In this document: positions 27,768 through 61,299 of the stretch, one piece after another
Layout: each line of letters begins with the position of its first letter
How positions within the stretch are numbered: the stretch's first letter is position 1
Assembly: GCA_965222955.1 (NCBI GenBank)
Contig: OZ244974.1
Coordinates: 1,536,226-1,600,225 of the forward strand
Origin: Hyphomicrobiales bacterium
Lineage (GTDB): Bacteria; Pseudomonadota; Alphaproteobacteria; Rhizobiales; CBDCVD01
DNA length: 64,000 nucleotides
Direction: 5' to 3'
Notes under the pieces: model-generated
The model's database searches: none
What the model saw: only the letters and a program-made list of their open reading frames with translations
Told to the model about the DNA's origin: nothing
Translations under genes and position numbers: made by a program

Positions 27768-27940
27768 GAGCGTGTCAGGTCTTAATAGAAGCAATTTTCG
27801 TTTCCCGATTGGCGAGGCGACACCGAAGCTCAAGGCGATCGAAGAGCGATGGCGACCCATCTCTCGAGAGCGGCCTGGGTGTGGGTATCGCCTCGCCAAT
27901 CGGGAAACGAAAATTGCTTCACTTAAAAACTGAAAGGCTC
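27768..27940. mobile_element. Family A short variant (173 bp, symmetric arms, variant right end)
   Basis: The ends are gagcgtgtcaggtcttaatagaagcaattttcgtttcccgattggcgaggcg... and ...cgcctcgccaatcgggaaacgaaaattgcttcacttaaaaactgaaaggctc. Confidence 0.75.
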
Positions 27941-28158
27941 TAGCAAGTTGTTTTACGTGGCTGCAAGCCGGCCGGCTCAAATGACCACAAGGGGCGCCAT
28001 ACGCCAATAGTTACAGCATCGGAGTTGTGAGTTTATATAATCGCGGTGTTGGCGTCAATCGCCAGATCGTTTAAGCAGATACGGTCGCCTGCGCAGTCAG
28101 ATCGACCGCCGGGTGCCCTGGCGACAGAAAACGCCCCAGATACGGAACAGGTACAACG

Positions 28159-37538: not shown

Positions 37539-37544
37539 TAAGGG

Positions 37545-37935
37545 AGTGTTCTGTTGCCAGGTTCTCCATGACCCCGCCCCATCCTTGCAGGGATGGGGGC
37601 TAAAGTTCGAGGCGTCGCGCCTTAAGCGGCGAGACGGACCTCTGCGTAGTTGTCATTTGCAACTATCAAAACGGCCCGATAACGGTGGATACCATACCGA
37701 ACGAAAACGCGTTCTTTACACCTTCGTCGATCCTGTTTCGCCCCCATCACAGACGGGCCTTGTGGCGTGCTGCGCTGCATTGTGCTACAAACCTGTCAGG
37801 TACAGATTTGCGATAAAGCGCAACACGAACCCCGCCGACACAACCAGGGCCGGTCTGTGGTGGAGGCGCCGGGTACCGCCCCCGGGTCCGAACAGCTTAT
37901 TGCAACGGTCATTTATCGTCATAGCCGGCAAGGCC
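37545..37935 (-). ncRNA. ssrA: Two-piece (circularly permuted) tmRNA
   Basis: All elements are on the minus strand. The acceptor piece ends ...ccgggggcggtacccggCGCCTCCACCA, with its 3' end at ~37858. The coding piece starts GGGGGCGAAACAGGATCGACG at ~37744, which allows a G3:U70 pair with the acceptor strand. The tag ORF GCA AAT GAC AAC TAC GCA GAG GTC CGT CTC GCC GCT TAA encodes ANDNYAEVRLAA* (37622-37660). The outer ends are approximate. Confidence 0.88.
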
Positions 37936-38024
37936 GGCACGTGACTATAACATAGTCACGCCCCTTACGCCAGACAATAGGTGATATCGGGACTGACCAG
38001 GAGAGTTTTGCTTTTCTTTGACTA

Positions 38025-44765: not shown

Positions 44766-45492
44766 TTAAGTCTCGCAGGATATAGTGGGGCTATTTTCAA
44801 GAGACTTAAGGTTCATCTTGGTGCAAAAGCGCCCGTCCCTTCGGGTTTCCGATTGGCGGACGCCCACGCCCAGGCCGCTCTCGAGAGATGGGTCGCCATC
44901 GCTCTTCGATCGCCTTGGGCGTGGTTCGCCTCGCCAATCGAGAAACAGAATTGCTTCTATTAAGACCTGACACGCTCTAGAAGCGCATTGCGCAGATCCC
45001 CGTCATCGGAACGTTGGAAACCGTCAAAAATCCGACTCCAATAGTAGCGCGCCGCCCGTGCCTCGACATTTTTGGGATCCCCCGATTGCACCCGCGAGGC
45101 CATGGCCGATAATACCGTCTCATCCCCGTGCTGCATTAAATGAAGATTTTCTGCCTGATTGCGGATTTTGGCTTTAACGATGTTTTTCCAGCAACGCTTT
45201 TTGAAAGGCTTGCTCAAAGCCAGTTGCTGGCGCGCCACTTCCGCCTGTGCATGATAGGTATGAAAGGAAAGGGCCAGCCCGCACGGATGGTGACGCTGGT
45301 CGGAAAAGACAATAGGCGTGCCGGCCTCCATACAGGCGGCAATCAGCCGCGCCGAGAGCGTGGCCTTGTTCGTATCAAGGATGATCCAGGCCGCATCTTC
45401 CAGGGGAAAGAACAAGGGCTCGGCTGCTGCATCCCCTTCAAGGTCGCAAACCCTGATACGGCCCTTGTCCAGCGACAAGGACGCCGCCCGGC

Positions 45493-48213
45493 TTATGTGC
45501 AGACCACGCCATGCCATGTACGCTTTTCCGATTTGATTTCACTTTTGCGACCAAGGCGGTCAACCTGAAATTTGCTGAACGAAAGAAGTGTCCGGCAACC
45601 GATACCACGGATCTGCCGTTGCCGGCTGACCTCCTCCGAGAGGGTAATGCTGGCGGTGGAACGGTCGACGCCGCGATAATAGCCCTGAATGATCTCGCCG
45701 TCTCTCTTCGCAACTTCCACCCAGGAAAACGGATAAAGGCTGAACCTGAATGAATACGTCTCGTTCATCTCAGGCCATTCTTTTTCTGTTTTCCCGGCTG
45801 TTGTCGCCTTGTTGGGCGGTTTGGGCCATTGCGCCCGATCGGCAATCTGATGAACATAGATCGGGACGATGTAGAACTTTCCGCTTTTTTCAAAAACATC
45901 AAGGCGAACGATGTTGCCGTTGTCCACATGGCCATTATTGACCTCAAAACCGGAGCGCTCGGTGGTTGGATTTTTTTCCGAGCGCACTGTCACTTTACGG
46001 ATCAAATGGCCGTTATTGCGCCGGGGCAGCTTGTCAGCCGGCGCTCCGGCGTCGAGCCAGTCGGACACTGCCCTGTAGACATCCTTATTGCGATCAGGAT
46101 CCTTTAACCTTTCAGGAGCGGCCCTGGTAATTTTTTCGATCGATTTACGCTCATAGATAATGCGCTTGCCATTCTCGATACGAGACTTTCTGATTGTAGC
46201 CTCGTGTCCTGCGCCGCGCCCGCGCCGGTTTTCACTACGTGCAACCGGTGCGGCGTCGCGGGCGGCAATCACATCTTCGGTAAAGCGCTCCCAGGGCTTG
46301 TCGACCTTGAGTTTTTTTATCGATTGCAGGCCTTTTTCCTCGCGCTCCTGAATGGCTTCGGTCAATTGTCGCAGTTGGCTTTCCGTGCAGACGGCCACGA
46401 TAATTGCATCGACCGCGTGATGGCGGTCATCTTCGATGCGTTTTTTCTTACCATCCTTGTCAGGCAGATATTTGAGCCGCTCAAGTCCCCATTTCTGCCT
46501 GAGTATTGCGATGATCTGGCCGGAACGGGCCCATATGCGCTTGCGCCGCCCGCCTTTCGCTTCTTCGGGCGTGTATATGCGCTCGATTTCCGTATGCGCC
46601 ACCCGTGCGGCGTAACGCATATCGTTCAAATTGCGTGCACTAAAGTTCTTTTTGCGATCGCTGAAATCCTTTATCGTTAAATTGCGGATTTTGAAGCCTT
46701 TTATCTTCTTGTTCTTGTGCATGTTCTTAACCCGCTGCTCAAACATATGCCATCGCTCGCGATTGTGGCCAAGCCATTCAAATGGCGTTTGGTCTTTCTT
46801 GTCGCGATTCTCCTTAACCCGGGCCAGGGCCTTGTTGTGCCAGGAATTGTCATAAGAACGGGAGAGGGGAAGAATATGGTCGATTTCTACCGCGTGTTCG
46901 CCGTCACACAGTTCATTGACGTCAATACACGTCGGCGGATGAGAGTACATACAATATTTATCCTGTTCTTTCCAAAGTTCGTAGCGCATTAGTTCTTGAT
47001 CCAAGCAATGTTCTTTATCGGTTAACTTGCAAAAATTCTTTCGTGCCTCGCGCCGGGCTTTTGTTCTCTTTTCGATACCCTTTCTAATTTCATCACGCGT
47101 TTTGGCGCCTTTGCCAACGTCACGGCCCGGTTCCAAATAAACCGCACCCGGCCGCTCACCCAAATGGTGTATCAGTGCCTTGACTTGTTTTAAGGTCTCC
47201 AGCACGGCGCGTTTGGCGACCGGATTGCTGATATTGGCAAGTTTGGCCTCATTTTGCCGAGTATGATCATAGCCGGCCTGTTTGCAGGCCTTGTCATAGG
47301 TCTTGCCCGCCACCAGACCGGGAAGAATATTGCGTGCCGCTTTTGTCGAAATATGTCCGGCCTTGGAAAATTTGGCAAACGCGCCTGTTTCAACACCCTC
47401 CATGAGTGCTGCCAACACCGCCGGCTCAAGTTCAAGGGTTTCAAGGCCCTGGCGGATACGTTCGATATCCTCGCGAAAGGTCAGCACGTGGGCAATCCGG
47501 TCAAGCTGCGCAGGGGTCTGTACTAGATGGTTCCAGGCGGCCTCACCGATCACCTTATAAAGCGTCGCAGAGCCAAAGGCGCTACCCTTGGAGGCGCGTG
47601 CCAAATCCTCGCCCGTGCTGTCATCACTTACACCAGCAAAGCTGGTATCCTTTGGCAACTTGCATAGCGAAATCAGTTTTTCCCGGGTGATCGATTTTGC
47701 ACCTTTGCCAAAGCCGGTGATCGCCATGGCCAACTCGTCGGGCGTCAAGCGCCGGCCCGAATAGGAGTCATCAACTATCCTGATATTGTTGAGTTTTGAT
47801 AGAAAACGGAACCGCTCAAAAGAATAGGCAAGGCTGCTTGCGCGTTTTTCTTCCGGCTCAAAGGGGCAATTGCCAAGCAGTATTTCCGAATCCTGCAAGG
47901 GTAATTGATCAAAGGCAAAACGGGCGTATTCCTCCTCCATCTCCCGCTCGGCATATTCTGATCCCAGGGCGCGCTGGCGCTTAAACAGTATTTTGACTTC
48001 GCTTTCATGCAAGCACCGAAAAAACGTATGAGAGTAATCCCCATGGCGATTGCGTTTTTTCCCGGCAAATTCCGGATCCCTGGCAAACATCTCGCCAACA
48101 GTGATGTATCTGGCCGCTTTCTCTTTGATCGACGCTGCGCCTTGCAGAACTTTTTTCTTTTCCGATGGCGCGTTGGAGGATTTGTCGGATCCTGTCGGGG
48201 ATACCTTTTCGAA
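45493..48213 (-). pseudogene. cas9: cas9 (type II-C), 5'-truncated; lacks RuvC-I and the bridge helix
   Basis: The open frame is 906 codons, with the first ATG at 48090 (865 aa). It aligns by eye to Neisseria-type Cas9 from ~residue 140 onward. Matching segments are GDYSHTF, RuvC-II (VYLEPGRDVGKG), HNH (VEIDHILPLSRSYDNSWHNKAL), RuvC-III (DDRHHAVDAIIVA) and the PI region (VRLDVFEKSGKFYIVPIYVHQIA). An in-frame TAA at 48214-48216 leaves only 109 nt before the next gene, so no room remains for the N-terminus. Confidence 0.88.
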
Positions 48214-50959: not shown

Positions 50960-51011
50960 TTGAATGTGAAAAAGTCCCCCGGCTTCGCCTCGGTCCACTT
51001 TTTCCCAATAA
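50960..51011. repeat. Family F palindromic element
   Basis: The sequence is ttgaatgtgaaaaagtcccccggcttcgcctcggtccactttttcccaataa. Further copies lie at 55362-55413 and 55986-56036, and one is split around A3 at 23345/23739. Confidence 0.6.
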
Positions 51012-51210
51012 TACCAGCGGTATTGGCGTTTTGTACGCGCTGACTTGTGTGTCGTGCTGACAAGACAACGGTTTTAATCTGCGCCGGGAGCCAAACGCAA
51101 GTCCCTGTATACCAGCGGTATTGGCGTTTTGTACGCGCTGACTTGTGTGTCGTGCTGACAAGACAACGGTTGCAAACCAGGTCAGGAGTCAAACGCAAAG
51201 CCCCTTGGTA
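51012..51210. mobile_element. Two head-to-tail family B MITEs
   Basis: The units are 51012-51109 and 51110-51210. The junction reads ...gtccctgta|taccagcgg... Confidence 0.8.
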
Positions 51211-51586: not shown

Positions 51587-53110
<1,524 letters not shown>

Positions 53111-53577
53111 TACCAGCGGTATTGGCTTCTTGTTCACGCTGGCTTGTGTATCGTGCTGATAGAGCGTGTCAGTTCTTAAGTGAACATTCTGACGGAGCGA
53201 TTTTGTGACAAGGCCAAGCAAAGTCTCGCAGGATATAGTGGGGCTATTTGCAAGAGACTTAAGGTTCATATTAGATCAGCCTGGCGTTAGCTGTACCCAT
53301 TTTGCCAAGGGTAAAGCTAACGCCATAAAGCTGATCGCCCCGAAATCCATAGCAAAAGCGCCCGTCCCTTCGGGTTTGTCGATTGGCGGGCGCCGACGCT
53401 CAAACCGATCTCATGAGATGCGCCCACATCGCATGTCGATCGGCTCAAACGTGGGTCATCTCGCCAATCGGGAAACGAAAATTGCTTCAGTTAAAAACTG
53501 AAAGGCTCCAAGACCTGACACGCTCCAGGACAGCGGTTTTAAACCGGGTCAGGAGTCAAACGCGAAGCTCCCTGGTA
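53111..53577. mobile_element. Family B MITE split by a family A insertion, starting right after the ALDH stop codon
   Basis: The left part of B (taccagcggtattggcttcttgttcacgctggcttgtgtatcgtgctga) is followed by A9. The right part of B (ggacagcggttttaaaccgggtcaggagtcaaacgcgaagctccctggta) comes after it. Confidence 0.75.
53162..53525 (-). mobile_element. Family A MITE (copy 9, divergent, with an extra internal palindromic insert)
   Basis: The ends are gagcgtgtcagttcttaagtgaacattctgacggagcg... and ...ctgaaaggctccaagacctgacacgctc. The extra segment is gatcagcctggcgttagct...agctaacgccataaagctgatc. Confidence 0.7.
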
Positions 53578-54693: not shown

Positions 54694-54825
54694 ATGTGAC
54701 TTCTCAGCCGGTTGTGCTCAGGATGATCAGATGGATGGCCCGGTATGGCCTTTCTGGCGGCAAGAGTGTTAAGAGGTGTCACGTCCGCGTTGCCTGTCCT
54801 GGGAACAACCTGCTGAAAGATCACA
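54694..54825. mobile_element. Family C MITE
   Basis: The ends are atgtgacttctcagccggttgtgctcaggatgatcagatggatggcccggtatggcc... and ...cctgggaacaacctgctgaaagatcaca. Confidence 0.65.
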
Positions 54826-54826
54826 A

Positions 54827-55320
54827 CCAGGGGACTTGCGTTTGTTTCCTGACCTGGTTTACAACCGTTGTCTTATCAGCACGACACACAAGTCAGCGCG
54901 TACAACAGCCGATACCGCTGGTATACAGGGGCGTTGCGTTTGACTCCTGGGCCGGTTTAAAACCGTTGCCTTATCAGCACGACACACAAGTCAGCGCGTA
55001 CAAAACGCCGATACCGCTGGTATACAGGGGCGTTGCGTTTGACTCCTGGGCCGGTTTAAAACCGTTGCCTTATCAGCACGACACACAAGTCAGCGCGTAC
55101 AAAACGCCAGTACCGCTGGTATACAAGGGGCGTTGCGTTTGACTCCTGAACTGGTTTACAACCGTTGTCTTATCAGCACGACACACAAGTCAGCGCGTAC
55201 AAAACGCCAATACCGCTGGTATACAAGGGACTTGCGTTTGACTCCTGACCCGGTTTACAACCGTTGTCTTATCAGCACGACACACAAGTCAGCGCGTACA
55301 AAACGCCAATGCCGCTGGTA
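54827..55320. repeat. Head-to-tail array of five family B MITEs (period 99-100 bp)
   Basis: The unit junctions ...ccgctggta|tacaRgggg... sit at 54921, 55020, 55119 and 55219. The array ends with gctggta at 55320, about 180 bp before tRNA-Lys. Confidence 0.85.
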
Positions 55321-55413
55321 CCAGTCCGCCGGGCTGCCCCAAGGACTGATTTGTCCTTGTTTTATTGGGAAAAAGTGGATCGAGGCTAAGCCGAGGGACT
55401 TTTTTACATTCAA
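55321..55413. repeat. H+F composite repeat
   Basis: The sequence is ccagtccgccgggctgccccaaggactgatttgtccttgttttattgggaaaaagtggatcgaggctaagccgagggacttttttacattcaa. A second copy at 55843-56036 is interrupted by a B element with a TTA duplication. Confidence 0.6.
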
Positions 55414-55500: not shown

Positions 55501-55576
<76 letters not shown>

Positions 55577-55884: not shown

Positions 55885-55985
55885 TACCAAGGGGCTTCGC
55901 GTTTGACTCCTGACCCGGTTTAAAACCGTTGTCTTGTCAGCACGATACACAAGTCAGCGTGTACAAAACGCCAATACCGCTGGTA
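55885..55985. mobile_element. Family B MITE inserted in an H+F element
   Basis: The junctions read tatttTA|taccaagggg...ccgctggta|TTAttggg. Confidence 0.8.
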
Positions 55986-56039
55986 TTATTGGGAAAATTA
56001 GACCGAGGCGAAGCCAAGGGACTTTTTCACATTCAACGA

Positions 56040-56500
56040 AGGAAGCCCTTGGAAAAATGCGTTAAGGCCGTCTCAGAGGAAAGAGATGGCCGGAAATGCG
56101 GTGCAAAAGCGTGGGGGCAGCATCGCGCTGGCCTGTCGTATTTTTCACATCAGCAAGACGTGTTATCGGTATGAACGCAAGCTCAGCGATGAGAACGCCG
56201 GGATTGCAGCCTGGCTGGTGCGATTGACTTCCACTCGCAGATCATGGAGTTTTGGTCTGTGTTTCCTGTATCTGCGCAACGTCAAAGGCTTCGAATGGAA
56301 CCACAAACGGGTTTACCGGATCCACTGTGAACTGGAGTTGCACCTTCGAATCAAGCCCAGGAAGCGCTTGAAGCGGCACAAACCTGACGAGCTGGTGGTG
56401 CCGGCTGCGCCAAACCAAACCTGATCGATGGGCTTCATGGCGGATCAACTGGCGGATGGGCGGTCGTTCCGAACGCTGAACGTGTTGGATGACTTCCAAA
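56040..56500 (+). pseudogene. IS3-family (IS407-like) transposase OrfB remnant
   Basis: It reads …SIALACRIFHISKTCYRYERK…FEWNHKRVYRIHCELELHLRIKPRKRLKR…APNQT. A TGA sits where W is expected, and the frame then continues SMGFMADQLADGRSFRTLNVLDDFQ. The catalytic DDE core is absent. Confidence 0.7.
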
Positions 56501-56722
56501 CGCCAGATGAGACGAAGGGCAGCAATTGAGCCGGTGATTGGGCATCTCAAGTCAGGGCATCGCATGGATCGGAACTATCTTGCTCATGAACAAGGCGATG
56601 CCATCAACCCGATCCTTGCGGCCGTGGGCTACAACTTCCACCTTATCCTCAAATGGATCAAGGCTTTTTGGTTCAAAATCCGGATTATGTGGATATTCAA
56701 TCAATCAGCCAAAATCGCGTAG
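56500..56722 (+). pseudogene. IS5-family (DDE_Tnp_1) transposase C-terminal remnant fused to the IS3 remnant
   Basis: The stretch RRRAAIEPVIGHLKSGHRMDRNYLAHEQGDAINPILAAVGYNFHLILKWI is the typical C-terminal block of IS5-family transposases. Nothing upstream of it survives. Confidence 0.7.
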
Positions 56723-56815
56723 TCCACAATCGACTCATCGATGCGCGCCCGTCGCGGCGGCAGGCCGGACTGGAGGATTTTTTCCGGATCGAGATTTTGC
56801 GTCGCCTTTGCCACC

Positions 56816-59800
56816 TTACCCTGGGGGGTCACCGCGCAAAGCCTCGCGCACCAGATCGGGACGATAGAGCGTATCGTGGAAATTGTCTATGGACAGGACT
56901 TCCAGGCCACGCACGACGTTGAGGTGTTTGGCGGCCTCCGGGCTTGAGGCATTGAAAAACCCTTCCGGGGTTATCACAAGCCAGGTACCATCTTTAAAGG
57001 CGATAAAGCGGGCCAGTTCCTTACCCGTCGCCACATCCCACAGGCGCGTCGTATCATCACCAGAGCCGGTGAGAACGGTGCGTCCGTCGGGGGAAAAGGC
57101 AATGCTCCTCACGTTTACGGAATGCCCCTCAAAGCGCTGGATTTCCTTACCCGTAGCCGCGTCCCACAGCCGGGCGGTGTCGTCCCCGGACCCGGTGAGA
57201 ACGGTGCCCCCGTCGGGGGAAAAGGCAACGCTGTTCGGGTTTCCGGAATGCCCTTCAAAGCGCCGGATCTCCTTACCCGTAGCCGCGTCCCACAGCCGGG
57301 CGGTGTCGTTCCAAGAGCCGGTGAGCATGGTGCGCCCGTCGGGGGAAAAGGCAACGCTGAACACAGCACCGGCATGCCCTACAAAGCGCCGGATCTCCTT
57401 ACCGGTGGCCGCGTCCCACAGCCGGGCGGTCTCGTCCTCGGCCCCGGTGAGAACGGTGCGGCCGTCGGGGGAAAAGGCAACGCTGGTCACATCGCGGGAA
57501 TGCCCTTCAAAGCGCCGGATCTCCTTGCCGGTGGTCGCGTCCCACAGCCGGGCGATGTGGTCCCAAGAGCCGGTGAGAACGGTGCGTCCGTCGGGGGAAA
57601 AGGCAACGCTGGTCACATAACCGGAATGCCCTTCAAAGCGCCTCAGTTCCTTACCCGTGACCGCGTCCCACAGCCGGGTGGTGTCGTCTACCGAGCCGGT
57701 GAGAACGGTGCCCCCGTCGGGGGAAAAGGCAACGCTCCGCACAGTATCGGCATGCCCTTGAAAGCGCCGAATCTCCTCACCGGTGGCCGCATCCCACAGC
57801 CAGGCGGTGTTGTCTACCGAGCCGGTGAGAACGGTGCGGCCGTCGGGGGAAAAGGCAACGCTGAACACAGCACCAGCATGCCCTTCAAAGCGCCGGATCT
57901 CCTTACCGGTGGCCGCGTCCCACAGCCGGGCGATGTTGTCAAACGAGCCGGTGAGAACGGTGCGGCCGTCGGGGGAAAAGGCAGCACTGGACGCAGGACG
58001 GGAATGCCCTTCAAAGCGCCGGATCTGCTTACCCGTGGCCGCGTCCCACAGCCGGGCGGTGTCGTCCCAAGAGCCGGTGAGAACGGTGCGGCCGTCGGGG
58101 GAAAAGGCAACGCTGGTCACGTCATAGGCATGCCCTTCAAAGCGCCGGATTTCCTTACCGGTGGCCGCGTCCCACAAACGGGCGGTGTTGTCCCAAGCGC
58201 CGGTGAGAACGGTGCGCCCGTCGGGGGAAAAGGCAACGCTGGTCACGTCATAGGCATGCCCTTCAAAGCGCCGGATTTCCTTACCGGTGGCCGCGTCCCA
58301 CAAACGGGCGGTGTTGTCCCAAGCGCCGGTGAGAACGGTGCGCCCGTCGGGGGAAAAGGCAACGCTGGACACAACATGGGAATGCCCTACAAAGCGCCGG
58401 ATCTCCTTACCGGTGGCCGCGTCCCACAGCCGGGCGGTGTTGTCTACCGAGCCGGTGAGAACGGTGCGCCCGTCGGGGGAAAAGGCAACGCTGGTCACAT
58501 CGCGGGAATGCCCTTCAAAGCGCCGGATCTCTTCACCGGTGGCCACGTCCCACAGCCGGGCGGTGCTGTCCCGGGATCCGGTGAGGACGGTGCCCCCGTC
58601 GGGGGAAAAGGCAACACTGGACACATAATCGGCATGCCCTTCAAAGCGCCGGATCTCCTTACCGGTAGCCGCGTCCCACAGCTGGGCGGTGTTGTCCCAA
58701 GAGCCGGTGAGAACGGTGCGCCCGTCGGGGGAAAAGGCAACGCTCCACACACCTTCGGCATGCCCTTCAAAGCGCCGGATCTCCTTACCCGTGGCCGCAT
58801 CCCACAGCCGCGCGGTATTGTCCATAGAGTTGGTAAAAACGGTGCGCCCGTCGGGGGAAAAGGCAACACTGGACACATAATCGGCATGCCCTTCAAAGCG
58901 CCGGATCTCCTTACCCGTGGCCGCGTCCCACAAACGGGCGGTCTTGTCCATAGAGCCGGTGAGAACGGTGCCCCCTTCGGGGGAAAAGGCAACACTGTAC
59001 ACCCCATCGGCATGCTCCACAAAGCGATCGGCATGCCCCACAAAGCGCTGGATCTCCTTACCCGTAGCCGCGTCCCACAGCCGGGCGGTGTTGTCCCGGG
59101 ACCCGGTGAGAACGGTGCCCCCGTCGGGGGAAAAGGCAACGCTCCAAACATTATCGGCATGCCCTTCAAAGCGCCGGATCTCCTTACCCGTGGCCGCGTC
59201 CCACAAACGGGCGGTCTTGTCCATAGAGCCGGTGAGAACGGTGCCCCCTTCGGGGGAAAAGGCAACACTGTACACCCCATCGGCATGCTCCACAAAGCGA
59301 TCGGCATGCCCCACAAAGCGCTGGATCTCCTTACCCGTAGCCGCGTCCCACAGCCGGGCGGTGTTGTCCCGGGACCCGGTGAGAACGGTGCCCCCGTCGG
59401 GGGAAAAGGCAACGCTCCAAACATTATCGGCATGCCCTTCAAAGCGCCGGATCTCCTTACCCGTGGCCGCGTCCCACAAACGGGCGGTCTTGTCCATAGA
59501 GCCGGTGAGAACGGTGCCCCCTTCGGGGGAAAAGGCAACACTGTACACCCCATCGGCATGCTCCACAAAGCGATCGGCATGCCCCACAAAGCGCTGGATC
59601 TCCTTACCCGTAGCCGCGTCCCACAGCCGGGCGGTGTTGTCCCGGGACCCGGTGAGAACGGTGCCCCCGTCGGGGGAAAAGGCAACGCTCCAAACATTAT
59701 CGGCATGCCCTTCAAAGCGCCGGATCTCCTTACCCGTGGCCGCGTCCCACAAACGGGCGGTCTTGTCCATAGAGCCGGTGAGAACGGTGCCCCCTTCGGG

Positions 59801-60874
59801 GGAAAAGGCAACACTGTACACCCCATCGGCATGCTCCACAAAGCGATCGGCATGCCCCACAAAGCGCTGGATCTCCTTACCCGTAGCCGCGTCCCACAGC
59901 CGGGCGGTGTTGTCCCGGGACCCGGTGAGAACGGTGCCCCCGTCGGGGGAAAAGGCAACGCTCCAAACATTATCGGCATGCCCTTCAAAGCGCCGGATCT
60001 CCTTACCCGTGGCCGCGTCCCACAAACGGGCGGTCTTGTCCATAGAGCCGGTGAGAACGGTGCCCCCTTCGGGGGAAAAGGCAACACTGTACACCCCATC
60101 GGCATGCTCCACAAAGCGATCGGCATGCCCCACAAAGCGCTGGATCTCCTTACCCGTAGCCGCGTCCCACAGCCGGGCGGTGTTGTCCCGGGACCCGGTG
60201 AGAACGGTGCCCCCGTCGGGGGAAAAGGCAACGCTCCAAACATTATCGGCATGCCCTTCAAAGCGCCGGATCTCCTTACCCGTGGCCGCGTCCCACAAAC
60301 GGGCGGTCTTGTCCATAGAGCCGGTGAGAACGGTGCCCCCTTCGGGGGAAAAGGCAACACTGTACACCCCATCGGCATGCTCCACAAAGCGATCGGCATG
60401 CCCCACAAAGCGCTGGATCTCCTTACCCGTAGCCGCGTCCCACAGCCGGGCGGTGTTGTCCCGGGACCCGGTGAGAACGGTGCCCCCGTCGGGGGAAAAG
60501 GCAACGCTGGTCACCCAAAAGGCATGCCCCAATTGGGCAAAGACGCGAATGTCGTCCGCGGCCGCTTGTGCAATGAGGGCATTGCCGGTGCCATTTGAGC
60601 CACCGGATGCCGCTATCAAATATTTATTATTCACCCAGGCTTCCTCGCCTGAGGCAAGACGCACCCGGCTCCAGTCCCCGTCGCGGGCCAACTCCTCCAC
60701 CACGGCGCCCGGGGGCAGCACATCGACTTTATCGTACTCCGGTCCCGGCCCTTGCCGCACGTTCAACTCTGTATCCGGCCTGACCTTGTATGTCGCGGCA
60801 AAAGCGGCCTCGCCCCACAACAATAGAGCGGCAACAAAACAAACAATAAAACCAATAACACGCCGTTCACGCAT
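56816..60874 (-). CDS. Secreted SH3-domain + 27x WD40-repeat protein (1352 aa)
   Basis: It has a signal-like N-terminus MRERRVIGFIVCFVAALLLWGEAAFAA. A bacterial SH3-like segment follows (YKVRPDTELNVRQGPGPEYDKVDVLPPGAVVEELARDGDWSRVRL). After that come 27 units of the form GH..V.SVAFSPDG.TVLTGS.D.TARLWDAATGKEIRRFE. The large antisense ORFs are shadows. Confidence 0.85.
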   Translation of the reverse strand: MRERRVIGFIVCFVAALLLWGEAAFAATYKVRPDTELNVRQGPGPEYDKVDVLPPGAVVEELARDGDWSRVRLASGEEAWVNNKYLIAASGGSNGTGNALIAQAAADDIRVFAQLGHAFWVTSVAFSPDGGTVLTGSRDNTARLWDAATGKEIQRFVGHADRFVEHADGVYSVAFSPEGGTVLTGSMDKTARLWDAATGKEIRRFEGHADNVWSVAFSPDGGTVLTGSRDNTARLWDAATGKEIQRFVGHADRFVEHADGVYSVAFSPEGGTVLTGSMDKTARLWDAATGKEIRRFEGHADNVWSVAFSPDGGTVLTGSRDNTARLWDAATGKEIQRFVGHADRFVEHADGVYSVAFSPEGGTVLTGSMDKTARLWDAATGKEIRRFEGHADNVWSVAFSPDGGTVLTGSRDNTARLWDAATGKEIQRFVGHADRFVEHADGVYSVAFSPEGGTVLTGSMDKTARLWDAATGKEIRRFEGHADNVWSVAFSPDGGTVLTGSRDNTARLWDAATGKEIQRFVGHADRFVEHADGVYSVAFSPEGGTVLTGSMDKTARLWDAATGKEIRRFEGHADNVWSVAFSPDGGTVLTGSRDNTARLWDAATGKEIQRFVGHADRFVEHADGVYSVAFSPEGGTVLTGSMDKTARLWDAATGKEIRRFEGHADYVSSVAFSPDGRTVFTNSMDNTARLWDAATGKEIRRFEGHAEGVWSVAFSPDGRTVLTGSWDNTAQLWDAATGKEIRRFEGHADYVSSVAFSPDGGTVLTGSRDSTARLWDVATGEEIRRFEGHSRDVTSVAFSPDGRTVLTGSVDNTARLWDAATGKEIRRFVGHSHVVSSVAFSPDGRTVLTGAWDNTARLWDAATGKEIRRFEGHAYDVTSVAFSPDGRTVLTGAWDNTARLWDAATGKEIRRFEGHAYDVTSVAFSPDGRTVLTGSWDDTARLWDAATGKQIRRFEGHSRPASSAAFSPDGRTVLTGSFDNIARLWDAATGKEIRRFEGHAGAVFSVAFSPDGRTVLTGSVDNTAWLWDAATGEEIRRFQGHADTVRSVAFSPDGGTVLTGSVDDTTRLWDAVTGKELRRFEGHSGYVTSVAFSPDGRTVLTGSWDHIARLWDATTGKEIRRFEGHSRDVTSVAFSPDGRTVLTGAEDETARLWDAATGKEIRRFVGHAGAVFSVAFSPDGRTMLTGSWNDTARLWDAATGKEIRRFEGHSGNPNSVAFSPDGGTVLTGSGDDTARLWDAATGKEIQRFEGHSVNVRSIAFSPDGRTVLTGSGDDTTRLWDVATGKELARFIAFKDGTWLVITPEGFFNASSPEAAKHLNVVRGLEVLSIDNFHDTLYRPDLVREALRGDPPG
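58883..60513. repeat. Six tandem 273-bp units inside the WD40 gene, identical by eye
   Basis: The string gcccttcaaagcgccggatctccttacccgtggccgcgtcccacaaacgg recurs at 58888 and 59161, and the pattern continues every 273 bp. Each unit encodes two WD repeats (42 + 49 aa). An additional 126-bp duplication lies at ~58131-58382. Confidence 0.85.
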
Positions 60875-60974
60875 CGCATCCCTGCCAGCTTGTTTGTCGA
60901 ATATAGCCCTTTGGCAATGTCTCCGGCAATATCTGTTTTACTACGGTATCTATTTTACTACGGTTCCCTCCAGA

Positions 60975-61087: not shown

Positions 61088-61274
61088 GCAGCACCCGATG
61101 GTTTTTTCGAGAACAACCTGTTGAGCTTACACATCCAGATGTGTAACTTCAAAAGGTTGTCCCTGGTACACGTATCAGAGGGATGGCCCGGTATGGCCTC
61201 TCTGACGGCAGGCGTGCAGGAGATGTACCCTCGAACCTGCCTGTCCCGGGAACAACGTGCTGAAAGATCACATC
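61088..61274. mobile_element. Family C elements (two halves back to back), 25 nt upstream of the argH ORF
   Basis: One half reads ...cacccgatggttttttcgagaacaacctgttgagcttacacat. The other reads ccagatgtgtaacttcaaaaggttgtccc...cccgggaacaacgtgctgaaagatcacat. Confidence 0.6.
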
Positions 61275-61299
61275 CGCACCGTTTTGGCATACGCGAATA

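What the first reader, a model, noticed from the sequence alone, without database searches (positions are those of the whole stretch)
58883..60513. Six identical 273-bp tandem units inside a 4-kb WD40 gene
Each unit encodes two WD40 blades. One carries a 7-aa internal duplication (GHADRFVEHADGVYSV). As far as I can read, the six units are base-for-base identical. The remaining 15 blades of the same gene have diverged at synonymous and non-synonymous positions. A further 126-bp duplication (one blade) lies at ~58131-58382. This pattern indicates very recent expansion or ongoing concerted evolution. It predicts copy-number instability through slippage or recombination, so the propeller number of this secreted protein may vary between cells or strains. 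It is also a prime site for assembly collapse or expansion errors.
Basis: seen in the sequence. Interest (0 to 1): 0.6.

Follow-up and report, generated by a model that had tools for sequence, protein, structure and literature searches.

The report
Freshly amplified two-blade WD40 cassette
A 273-base stretch that encodes two blades of a beta-propeller protein sits six times in a row without a single difference inside a bacterial gene; this is a textbook-quality but already known kind of recent repeat amplification, and the gene has lost its protease end.

Summary
Window 58880..60508 (1629 nt) has perfect 273-nt periodicity: 5.97 units with no mismatch. It lies in a 4059-nt ORF (56816..60874, minus strand).

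The ORF encodes a signal peptide, a bacterial SH3 domain, 27 WD40 blades and a conserved 72-aa tail. Each unit is a 49-aa blade carrying a 21-nt internal duplication, plus a 42-aa blade. The other 15 blades are 75-96% identical at DNA level.

Blade-to-blade variation concentrates in five codons. Four of them are the positions under diversifying selection in fungal HNWD repeats, and three are the canonical WD40 top-face hot spots. Synonymous sites elsewhere are largely homogenised. This matches the known "highly repetitive WD40 / recently amplified propeller" class. Only the two-blade unit is unusual.

- The gene is a relic. Relatives continue after the tail into an Ig-like domain and a caspase. 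Here a G6 run shifts the frame, and homology ends near 56750 beside an IS5 fragment.
- The blade array is about twice the family norm of 14.

I found no orthologue or second strain, so the copy number and its stability remain untested. Assembly error in the count cannot be excluded.

The parts
56816..60874 (-). ORF of 1352 aa: signal peptide, SH3b, 27 WD40 blades, conserved tail. The present stop codon is at 56816-56818.
   Evidence: Alternative-frame ORFs over the repeats have no genuine Pfam match.
60797..60874 (-). Signal-peptide-like N-terminus (aa 1-26, MRERRVIGFIVCFVAALLLWGEAAFA|A)
   Evidence: Read from the translation. Relatives P0051 and P0080 have equivalent N-termini. This is an inference; no predictor was run.
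60617..60769 (-). Bacterial SH3 domain (aa 36-86)
   Evidence: PF08239 SH3_3, E 1e-14. Confidently folded in AF2.
57035..60562 (-). WD40 array of 27 blades (aa 105-1280)
   Evidence: Mean blade identity is 0.79 aa. The DH[S/T]W tetrad is complete in 26 of 27 blades.
58880..60508 (-). Perfect tandem array: 5.97 units of 273 nt. Units are 58880-59152, 59153-59425, 59426-59698, 59699-59971, 59972-60244 and 60245-60508.
59006..59047 (-). 21-nt tandem duplication (RFVGHAD/RFVEHAD, 1 mismatch) inside the 49-aa blade. The same feature recurs at 59279-59320, 59552-59593, 59825-59866, 60098-60139 and 60371-60412.
   Evidence: AF2 models it as a 12-13-residue low-confidence loop between strands D and A, recurring every 91 aa.
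58092..58368 (-). Second, smaller perfect repeat: period 126 nt, 2.2 copies (blades 16-18)
   Evidence: blades 17 and 18 are 96% identical
56819..57034 (-). Conserved 72-aa tail module (..FKDGTWLVITPEGFFNAS..LYRPDLVREALRGDP..) that follows the WD40 array in the family
   Evidence: phmmer against 1.84 billion representatives gave 2002 hits at E<=1e-3 and 597 at E<=1e-10. No Pfam model matches.
56823..56828 (-). G6 (C6 on the coding strand) homopolymer where the frame is lost. Removing one base restores the family reading frame.
56750..56822 (-). Out-of-frame continuation of the family linker (GKVAKATQNLDPEKILQSGLPPR). Homology to relatives ends near 56750.
56489..56722 (+). C-terminal fragment of an IS5-family transposase, abutting the truncated gene end
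   Evidence: tblastn to plasmids gave 61-78% identity at E about 1e-23, with features annotated as IS5 family transposase. Pfam DDE_Tnp_1_6 match is weak.
56086..56424 (+). IS3-family transposase fragment
   Evidence: megablast hits to annotated IS3 transposases. Pfam HTH_21 match is weak.
55501..55576 (+). tRNA-Lys(CTT), bounding the IS-fragment zone downstream of the gene
60881..60929 (-). Promoter-like hexamers (60929..60900) and an AGGGA ribosome-binding site 6 nt before the ATG
   Evidence: These are consensus matches only.

Best explanation
The array is a very recent intragenic amplification of a two-blade (273-nt) cassette inside a 'highly repetitive' WD40 gene.

Shown:
- The gene's 27 blades share a DNA scaffold that is homogenised even at synonymous sites.
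- Five codons per blade are hypervariable (positions 15, 16, 18, 34 and 36). They cover the three canonical top-face hot spots: R1-2, R1 and D-1.
- One blade acquired a 21-nt duplication that lengthens its top-face D-A loop.
- That blade and its neighbour were then copied to about six tandem units, with no substitution since.

Inferred mechanism: unequal homologous recombination, or replication slippage, between neighbouring blades that are 84-93% identical. Once two identical units exist, further expansion and contraction becomes easy.

Shown for context:
- The gene belongs to a large family of exported proteins. The family plan is a signal peptide, a cell-wall-binding domain, about 14 WD40 blades, a conserved tail, an Ig-like domain and a caspase-like protease.
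- The window copy stops at the tail. A G6 run shifts the frame, homology ends about 70 nt later next to an IS5 fragment, and no caspase part is left in the window.
- Its blade array is about twice the family norm.

Inferred consequence: the WD40 array was the ligand-sensing part of an envelope protease. After losing that effector it is under relaxed constraint on blade number, and the run-away array is a neutral or nearly neutral by-product of an inherently recombinogenic sequence. The amplified blades are identical, so they add no new binding specificities.
For: - Perfect 273-nt periodicity over 1629 nt. Other blade pairs are 75-96% identical.
- In 17 unique blades, five codon columns have at least 2 bits of entropy and all others have at most 1 bit. 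Many scaffold codons are identical in all 17, third positions included.
- NG86 estimates: hypervariable codons dN 0.89; scaffold dN 0.064 and dS 0.236. 42% of nucleotide differences fall in 12% of sites.
- Columns 16, 18 and 34 are R1-2, R1 and D-1 of Wu et al. 2012 (PMC3419727). Columns 16, 18, 34 and 36 have the same spacing, and flank the same conserved V and D, as the four positively selected codons of fungal HNWD repeats (PMC1805685).
- Identical 62-69-nt tracts, including hypervariable codons, are shared by non-adjacent blades at periods 252 and 1008.
- Mean blade identity is 0.79, above the 0.7 cut-off for 'highly repetitive' WD40 (PMC5587647).
- AF2 folds all blades confidently and places the 7-aa duplication in a loop. 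The best PDB match is 2YMU, 'highly repetitive propeller'.
- Family architecture and truncation.
- Intact relative P0080 also has near-identical blades (median 80.6% nt, maximum 99.2%).
Against: - Neither the copy number nor the perfect identity can be checked without reads. Short-read polishing can homogenise repeat copies, and assemblers can miscount them.
- The 4-kb ORF is otherwise intact, and it has a plausible promoter and ribosome-binding site. Relaxed constraint is therefore not demonstrated.
- A caspase-less relative with old, diverged blades exists (P0094). A truncated protein could thus be functional.
- The G6 frameshift could be a sequencing error, although the loss of homology at about 56750 is not.
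- The order of truncation and amplification is unknown.
- No recombination event was observed; the mechanism is inferred from the pattern and from work on other repeat arrays.
Confidence: 0.7

Rival explanations
1. Assembly or polishing artefact. The locus truly has tandem two-blade units, but the number (six) and/or their base-for-base identity were produced by the assembler. This could happen by placing reads from a repeat longer than the read length, or by consensus polishing that copies the majority base into every unit.
For: - A 1.63-kb perfect tandem array cannot be resolved by reads shorter than that.
- The literature on such propellers warns explicitly that blade counts in 100%-identical arrays are uncertain (PMC9218822).
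- 27 blades is not a multiple of seven.
- In AF2, the extra blade of a 15-blade fragment is modelled with low confidence.
- The window gene is far longer than any of 73 complete relatives.
Against: - Short-read assemblers normally collapse such arrays rather than expand them.
- The array is in frame, with clean junctions to diverged flanks on both sides.
- Near-identical adjacent blades also occur in an independent relative (99.2%) and elsewhere in this gene (58092-58368). The biology needs no artefact.
Confidence: 0.15
2. Old duplication kept identical by continuing gene conversion. The six units are not young; frequent intra-array conversion erases every new substitution.
For: The whole array shows signs of homogenisation. 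Scaffold synonymous sites are nearly invariant, and identical tracts are shared by distant blades.
Against: - Conversion in the same gene has left the other 15 blades 4-25% different. It is therefore not efficient enough to keep 1.6 kb free of any difference.
- The one mismatch inside the 21-nt duplication is faithfully present in all six units. This is what copying of a single founder predicts.
Confidence: 0.1
3. Adaptive contingency locus. Unit number is varied on purpose, at population level, to change the size or valency of an exported binding protein, as in length-variable surface proteins.
For: - The protein is probably exported and wall-associated.
- The unit length is a multiple of three, so every change keeps the frame.
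- Comparable WD40 arrays in Podospora change repeat number at high frequency, with phenotypic consequences (PMC2873952).
Against: - No population data exist.
- The amplified blades are identical, so no new surfaces arise.
- The gene has lost its effector part.
- Relatives keep a tight norm of about 14 blades, which argues against free variation being useful.
Confidence: 0.05

Closest known systems
Highly repetitive / recently amplified WD40 beta-propellers (Hu et al. 2017, PMC5587647; Pereira & Lupas 2022, PMC9218822; WRAP domain of Nostoc Npun_R6612, PDB 2YMU)
   Same: - Tandem WD40 blades with at least 0.7 internal identity (0.79 here).
- Identity extends to the DNA level.
- Complete DH[S/T]W tetrads.
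- Variable hot-spot positions on a conserved scaffold.
- More than 14 blades.
- Frequent disruption by frameshifts.
- 2YMU is the best structural match (E 8e-51).
   Different: - The amplified unit is two blades. In the survey of 9,919 proteins this was seen only once, in a fungal NACHT protein.
- One of the two blades carries its own 21-nt duplication.
- The array is 'locally' perfect inside an older, already repetitive array.
- The host protein is exported and SH3b-tagged, not a cytoplasmic STAND or kinase protein.
Fungal HNWD / NLR WD40 repeats with high internal conservation (het-e, het-d, het-r; Paoletti 2007, PMC1805685; Chevanne 2010, PMC2873952)
   Same: - 42-aa (126-nt) repeats under concerted evolution.
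- The same four codons, flanking the conserved V and D, are hypervariable.
- Repeat arrays are prone to deletion and duplication.
   Different: - There is no NACHT/STAND NTPase and no HET effector.
- The organism is bacterial, so RIP does not apply.
- Strain polymorphism is not documented here.
- The protein is extracytoplasmic.
   Same: - Signal peptide, SH3_3, a WD40 array starting at '..QLGH..', and the conserved tail module (58-70% identical).
- The closest WD40 relatives (63-65% identical) are of this type.
   Different: - The window gene has no Big_7, caspase or C-terminal SH3 part.
- It has 27 rather than about 14 blades.
- The serpin/OmpA/caspase neighbours seen next to P0080 are absent here.

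Membership tests
Highly repetitive (HR) WD40 protein (Hu et al. 2017) | WD40 repeats forming beta-propeller blades | tested here: met
   PF00400 matched with 27 stretches. AF2 gives four strands per blade, pLDDT 82-87. Foldseek matches WD40 propellers.
Highly repetitive (HR) WD40 protein (Hu et al. 2017) | Internal repeat identity of at least 0.7 | tested here: met
   Mean pairwise blade identity is 0.79 for all 27 blades and 0.80 for the 15 older blades. The cut-off is quoted.
Highly repetitive (HR) WD40 protein (Hu et al. 2017) | Youth confirmed at DNA level (low synonymous divergence between repeats) | tested here: met
   Scaffold dS is 0.24 among the older blades and 0 among the six units.
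Highly repetitive (HR) WD40 protein (Hu et al. 2017) | Many DH[S/T]W tetrads; hot-spot sites diverse while the rest is conserved | tested here: met
   26 of 27 tetrads are complete. The hypervariable columns are 15, 16, 18, 34 and 36, compared with R1-2, R1 and D-1.
Recently amplified beta-propeller, 'locally repetitive' type (Pereira & Lupas 2022) | A run of near-identical consecutive blades flanked by less similar blades of the same propeller family | tested here: met
   12 blades in six identical units sit next to 15 blades at 75-96% nt identity.
Recently amplified beta-propeller, 'locally repetitive' type (Pereira & Lupas 2022) | Amplification from a single blade | tested here: not met
   The unit is two blades (273 nt). 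The 49-aa and 42-aa blades of a unit are only 84% identical. The paper reports one such case.
Exported SH3b-WD40-caspase family | N-terminal signal peptide plus a cell-wall-binding domain | tested here: met
   SH3_3 at E 1e-14. The signal peptide is read from the sequence. P0051, P0080 and P0126 have the same arrangement.
Exported SH3b-WD40-caspase family | Conserved tail module directly after the last blade | tested here: met
   597 representatives at E<=1e-10. 58-67% identity to P0124, P0125, P0051 and P0080.
Exported SH3b-WD40-caspase family | Ig-like domain and Peptidase_C14 domain after the tail | tested here: not met
   tblastn with three relatives' C-terminal parts finds nothing in the window beyond about 56750. 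In relatives, 85 of 89 with more than 300 aa after the tail have the caspase Cys motif, and Pfam finds Peptidase_C14 and Big_7.
Exported SH3b-WD40-caspase family | About 14 blades (two propellers) before the tail | tested here: not met
   The tail starts at residue 1281 here. In 73 complete relatives the median is 644, with an IQR of 606-687 and a maximum of 1020.
Fungal HNWD / NLR-type recognition repeats | NACHT/STAND NTPase plus effector N-terminal to the repeats | tested here: not met
   Only SH3_3 and WD40 were found.
Fungal HNWD / NLR-type recognition repeats | Four hypervariable codons flanking the conserved V and D of each repeat | tested here: met
   Columns 16/18 and 34/36, compared with codons 7/9 and 25/27. 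The spacing is identical.
Fungal HNWD / NLR-type recognition repeats | Repeat number polymorphic between individuals | not testable with these tools
   No second genome of this lineage was found in any collection.
Phase-variable contingency locus | Repeat-number change switches the reading frame or promoter on and off | tested here: not met
   Unit lengths of 273, 126 and 21 nt are all multiples of three, and the array is internal to the ORF.

The most novel reading that the evidence does not exclude
The locus may be a live snapshot of a propeller array amplifying from a two-blade cassette in a bacterium. More broadly, the family it comes from may be an extracytoplasmic non-self or damage sensor. 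That family combines a signal peptide, a wall anchor, hypervariable concerted-evolution WD40 blades and a caspase, with serpin/OmpA neighbours in a relative. Its recognition repeats would diversify in the same way as fungal NLR repeats, and the six-unit array would then be one step of an active repeat-shuffling process rather than decay.
Probability: 0.1. Interest if true: 0.6.

Novelty: new member of a known kind. Interest (0 to 1): 0.3.

Why it matters
The array adds a clean bacterial example to the catalogue of beta-propellers caught in the act of amplification. It has two rare details: the amplified unit is two blades, and that unit already carried its own micro-duplication. It also shows that the hypervariable positions of a bacterial exported WD40 array coincide with those of fungal allorecognition repeats.

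In practice it is a warning flag for annotation. The blade count depends on the assembly, the gene is a truncated relic that automatic pipelines would call an intact 'WD40 repeat protein', and three long spurious ORFs in other frames overlap the array.

It does not open a new question on its own.

Tried and rejected
**Looking for the same gene in other strains**
- Exact look-ups of the protein and four neighbours found nothing.
- The full-length protein search returned only generic multi-WD40 proteins at 67% identity or less.
- An N-terminus-only search found no homologue.
- The metagenome scan was swamped by the common VAFSPDGG blade motif because I left the first blade in the query. That was a wasted scan.
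- The genome scan with ArgH gave only Alphaproteobacteria at 67% identity or less.
- Megablast against plasmids hit only the IS3 fragment.

**Working out how 27 blades partition into propellers with AF2**
- Only pLDDT and secondary structure are returned, so the partition stays unresolved.
- The hint is that a 15-blade fragment leaves one blade poorly modelled.

**Counting blades in relatives**
- A blade HMM built from this gene was too specific and undercounted.
- I used the position of the tail instead.

**Defence-system and NCBIfam libraries**
- Only sub-threshold or generic propeller matches came back.

**Readings rejected**
- Real genes on the opposite strand or in other frames: the long ORFs are a by-product of stop-free periodic sequence.
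- Horizontal transfer inferred from the 64% G+C of the repeats: the non-repeat 5' part of the gene has the local G+C, and the blade consensus is rich in G/A/R/P codons.


Full report
**1. The observation**

Tandem Repeats Finder reports a period-273 array across the region. A direct test shows that every base from 58880 to 60235 equals the base 273 nt downstream. Window 58880..60508 is therefore perfectly periodic: 1629 nt, 5.97 units, and no mismatch in 1356 comparisons.

The array lies in a 4059-nt ORF on the minus strand (56816..60874, 1352 aa). Cutting the protein after each 'LWD' gives 27 blades. Blade 0 is followed by six alternations of a 49-aa and a 42-aa blade, and then by 15 further 42-aa blades.

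The 49-aa blade contains RFVGHAD/RFVEHAD. This is a 21-nt tandem duplication with one mismatch, and it is found identically in all six units. A second perfect run, of period 126, covers 58092..58368.

**2. The gene**

- Pfam finds 27 WD40 stretches and an SH3_3 domain at aa 36-86.
- The N-terminus (MRERR-hydrophobic-AFA|A) reads as a Sec signal peptide. This is an inference from the sequence.
- The last 72 aa have no Pfam match.
- The other long ORFs over the array, in other frames and on the other strand, have no genuine family match. They are by-products of stop-free periodic DNA.
- A promoter-like site and an AGGGA ribosome-binding site precede the ATG.
- tmRNA and a SAM riboswitch of the alphaproteobacterial types, together with ArgH relatives, place the window in an alphaproteobacterium without a close sequenced relative.

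**3. How the blades differ**

The six units are 100% identical. Pairs among blades 12-26 are 75-96% identical at DNA level, and mean amino-acid identity between blades is 0.79.

In an alignment of the 17 distinct blades, five codon columns (15, 16, 18, 34, 36) each carry 2.0-2.8 bits of entropy. Every other column carries 1 bit or less. Many scaffold codons are the same triplet in all 17 blades. By Nei-Gojobori counting:

| Codon class | dN | dS |
|---|---|---|
| Five hypervariable codons | 0.89 | 0.97 |
| 37 scaffold codons | 0.064 | 0.236 |

Of all pairwise nucleotide differences, 42% fall in these 12% of sites.

Columns 16, 18 and 34 are the R1-2, R1 and D-1 top-face hot spots defined from WD40 complexes (PMC3419727). 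Columns 16/18 and 34/36 flank the conserved V and D. [quoted passage not shown]

Identical 62-69-nt tracts that include hypervariable codons are shared by blades two and eight positions apart. That points to exchange within the array.

The pattern is concerted evolution of the scaffold combined with retained or selected diversity on the binding face. It is the description given for 'highly repetitive' WD40 proteins, whose hot-spot sites are diverse while the rest is conserved (PMC5587647).

**4. Structure**

AF2 models of aa 27-692 (pLDDT 87) and aa 651-1352 (pLDDT 82) fold every blade into four strands.

In the 15-blade model, the first blade and the blade 18/19 region are poorly modelled, and two long blocks are confident. 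This hints at two propellers plus a spare blade. Coordinates are not returned, so the partition of 27 blades is unresolved.

The best PDB match is 2YMU, 'a highly repetitive propeller structure' (E 8e-51), followed by Apaf-1.

**5.

The tail motif occurs in several hits of the first search. P0051 and P0080 (both 1258 aa) have this plan: signal peptide, SH3_3, 14 WD40 blades, the tail, Big_7, Peptidase_C14, SH3. Of the 120 best WD40 hits, 26 carry a caspase Cys motif after the array. These include the most similar ones, at 63-65% identity.

A search of 1.84 billion representatives with the tail alone gives 2002 hits at E<=1e-3 and 597 at E<=1e-10.
- Of 92 hits with a long N-terminal part, 72 continue for more than 300 aa after the tail.
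- Of the 89 hits with more than 300 aa after the tail, 85 have the caspase motif.
- In 73 complete relatives the tail starts at a median residue 644 (IQR 606-687, maximum 1020). That fits about 14 blades. Here it starts at residue 1281.

In the window, homology to the relatives runs past the stop codon in another frame. Deleting one base of the G6 run at 56823-56828 restores a continuous alignment through '..GDPQGKVAKATQNLDPEKILQSGLPP'. Homology then ends near 56750.

Directly beyond lie three features:
- the C-terminal fragment of an IS5-family transposase (56489-56722);
- an IS3 fragment;
- tRNA-Lys.

No caspase-coding sequence is left in the window. The gene is therefore a 5' relic of an SH3b-WD40-caspase gene.

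The truncated form is not necessarily dead. P0094 has the same architecture without a caspase, and its blades are old and diverged. The 4-kb ORF is otherwise intact.

**6. Mechanism**

Shown: the order of events. The 21-nt duplication, and its single mismatch, came first. Amplification of the two-blade cassette came second, and no substitution has occurred since.

Inferred: unequal homologous recombination or replication slippage between neighbouring blades of 84-93% identity created the first duplication of the pair. Identical 273-nt units then recombine readily. Comparable WD40 arrays in Podospora lose, gain and reshuffle repeats at high frequency (PMC2873952).

Also inferred: the array is twice the family norm, the blade total (15 + 2n, with n = 6) is not a multiple of seven, and the effector is gone. 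On this basis I read the expansion as tolerated rather than selected. The alternatives are listed with their tests: an assembly artefact, conversion-maintained old copies, and an adaptive contingency locus.

**7. Comparison with what is known, and novelty**

The locus meets every tested criterion of a highly repetitive WD40 protein. It fits the 'locally repetitive' class of recently amplified propellers (PMC9218822).

It departs in that the amplified unit is two blades. That survey of 9,919 proteins saw this once, in a fungal NACHT protein with 47 blades, and questioned the assembly-derived count there as well.

It is not a full member of the SH3b-WD40-caspase family, because the protease part is missing. 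It is not an NLR, because it has no NTPase. It is a new member of a known kind.

**8. Limits**

No reads, no second strain and no expression data were available. The copy number, its stability and the reality of the G6 frameshift all remain to be tested.

Noticed in passing
window 54827-55321, 55888-55986, 51011-51203 (inverted), 53110-53161 and 53526-53577: A family of roughly 99-nt repeats: five tandem copies, one solitary copy, two inverted copies, and two half-copies that flank about 360 nt. Copies are 79-100% alike. They lie between genes around the aldehyde dehydrogenase and saccharopine-dehydrogenase-like genes and tRNA-Lys. No Rfam family matches at gathering threshold. They may be a REP- or MITE-like element; their nature is unexplained.
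   Followed up: partly
window 54726-54830 and 61174-61277: A direct repeat of about 105 nt (83-92% identical). It brackets the 6.35-kb segment that holds the 99-nt array, tRNA-Lys, the IS fragments and the WD40 gene. One copy follows the saccharopine-dehydrogenase-like gene and the other precedes argH. It could mark the borders of an inserted segment or be another dispersed element.
   Followed up: partly
window 44960-48090, minus strand: Remnants of a type II CRISPR-Cas locus. There is a Cas9-like ORF of 865 aa (HNH_4, RuvC_III, Cas9_a) with no room for the usual N-terminal part before the neighbouring LysR gene. There is also a Cas1 ORF of only 185 aa, matching model positions 7-164 of 283. 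No CRISPR array was found in 38-49 kb. This suggests gene decay in the region.
   Followed up: partly
window 60930-60964: Two tandem copies of a 17-nt motif (TATCTATTTTACTACGG) immediately upstream of the promoter-like site of the WD40 gene. This could be a regulator-binding site.
   Followed up: no
L161 9832-15777 (contig carrying relative P0080): The intact SH3b-WD40-caspase relative is followed by an OmpA+Serpin fusion gene, another OmpA-domain gene and two Peptidase_C14+DUF4384 genes. This suggests an envelope protease/inhibitor module.
   Followed up: no
window 52640-52678: An 18-nt perfect tandem duplication inside the aldehyde-dehydrogenase gene, giving GGRVHGGGRVHGG in the protein.
   Followed up: no
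window 37540-37976 and 27922-27998: A two-piece (permuted) alphaproteobacterial tmRNA and a SAM-alpha riboswitch. Both support an alphaproteobacterial origin for the window.
   Followed up: no
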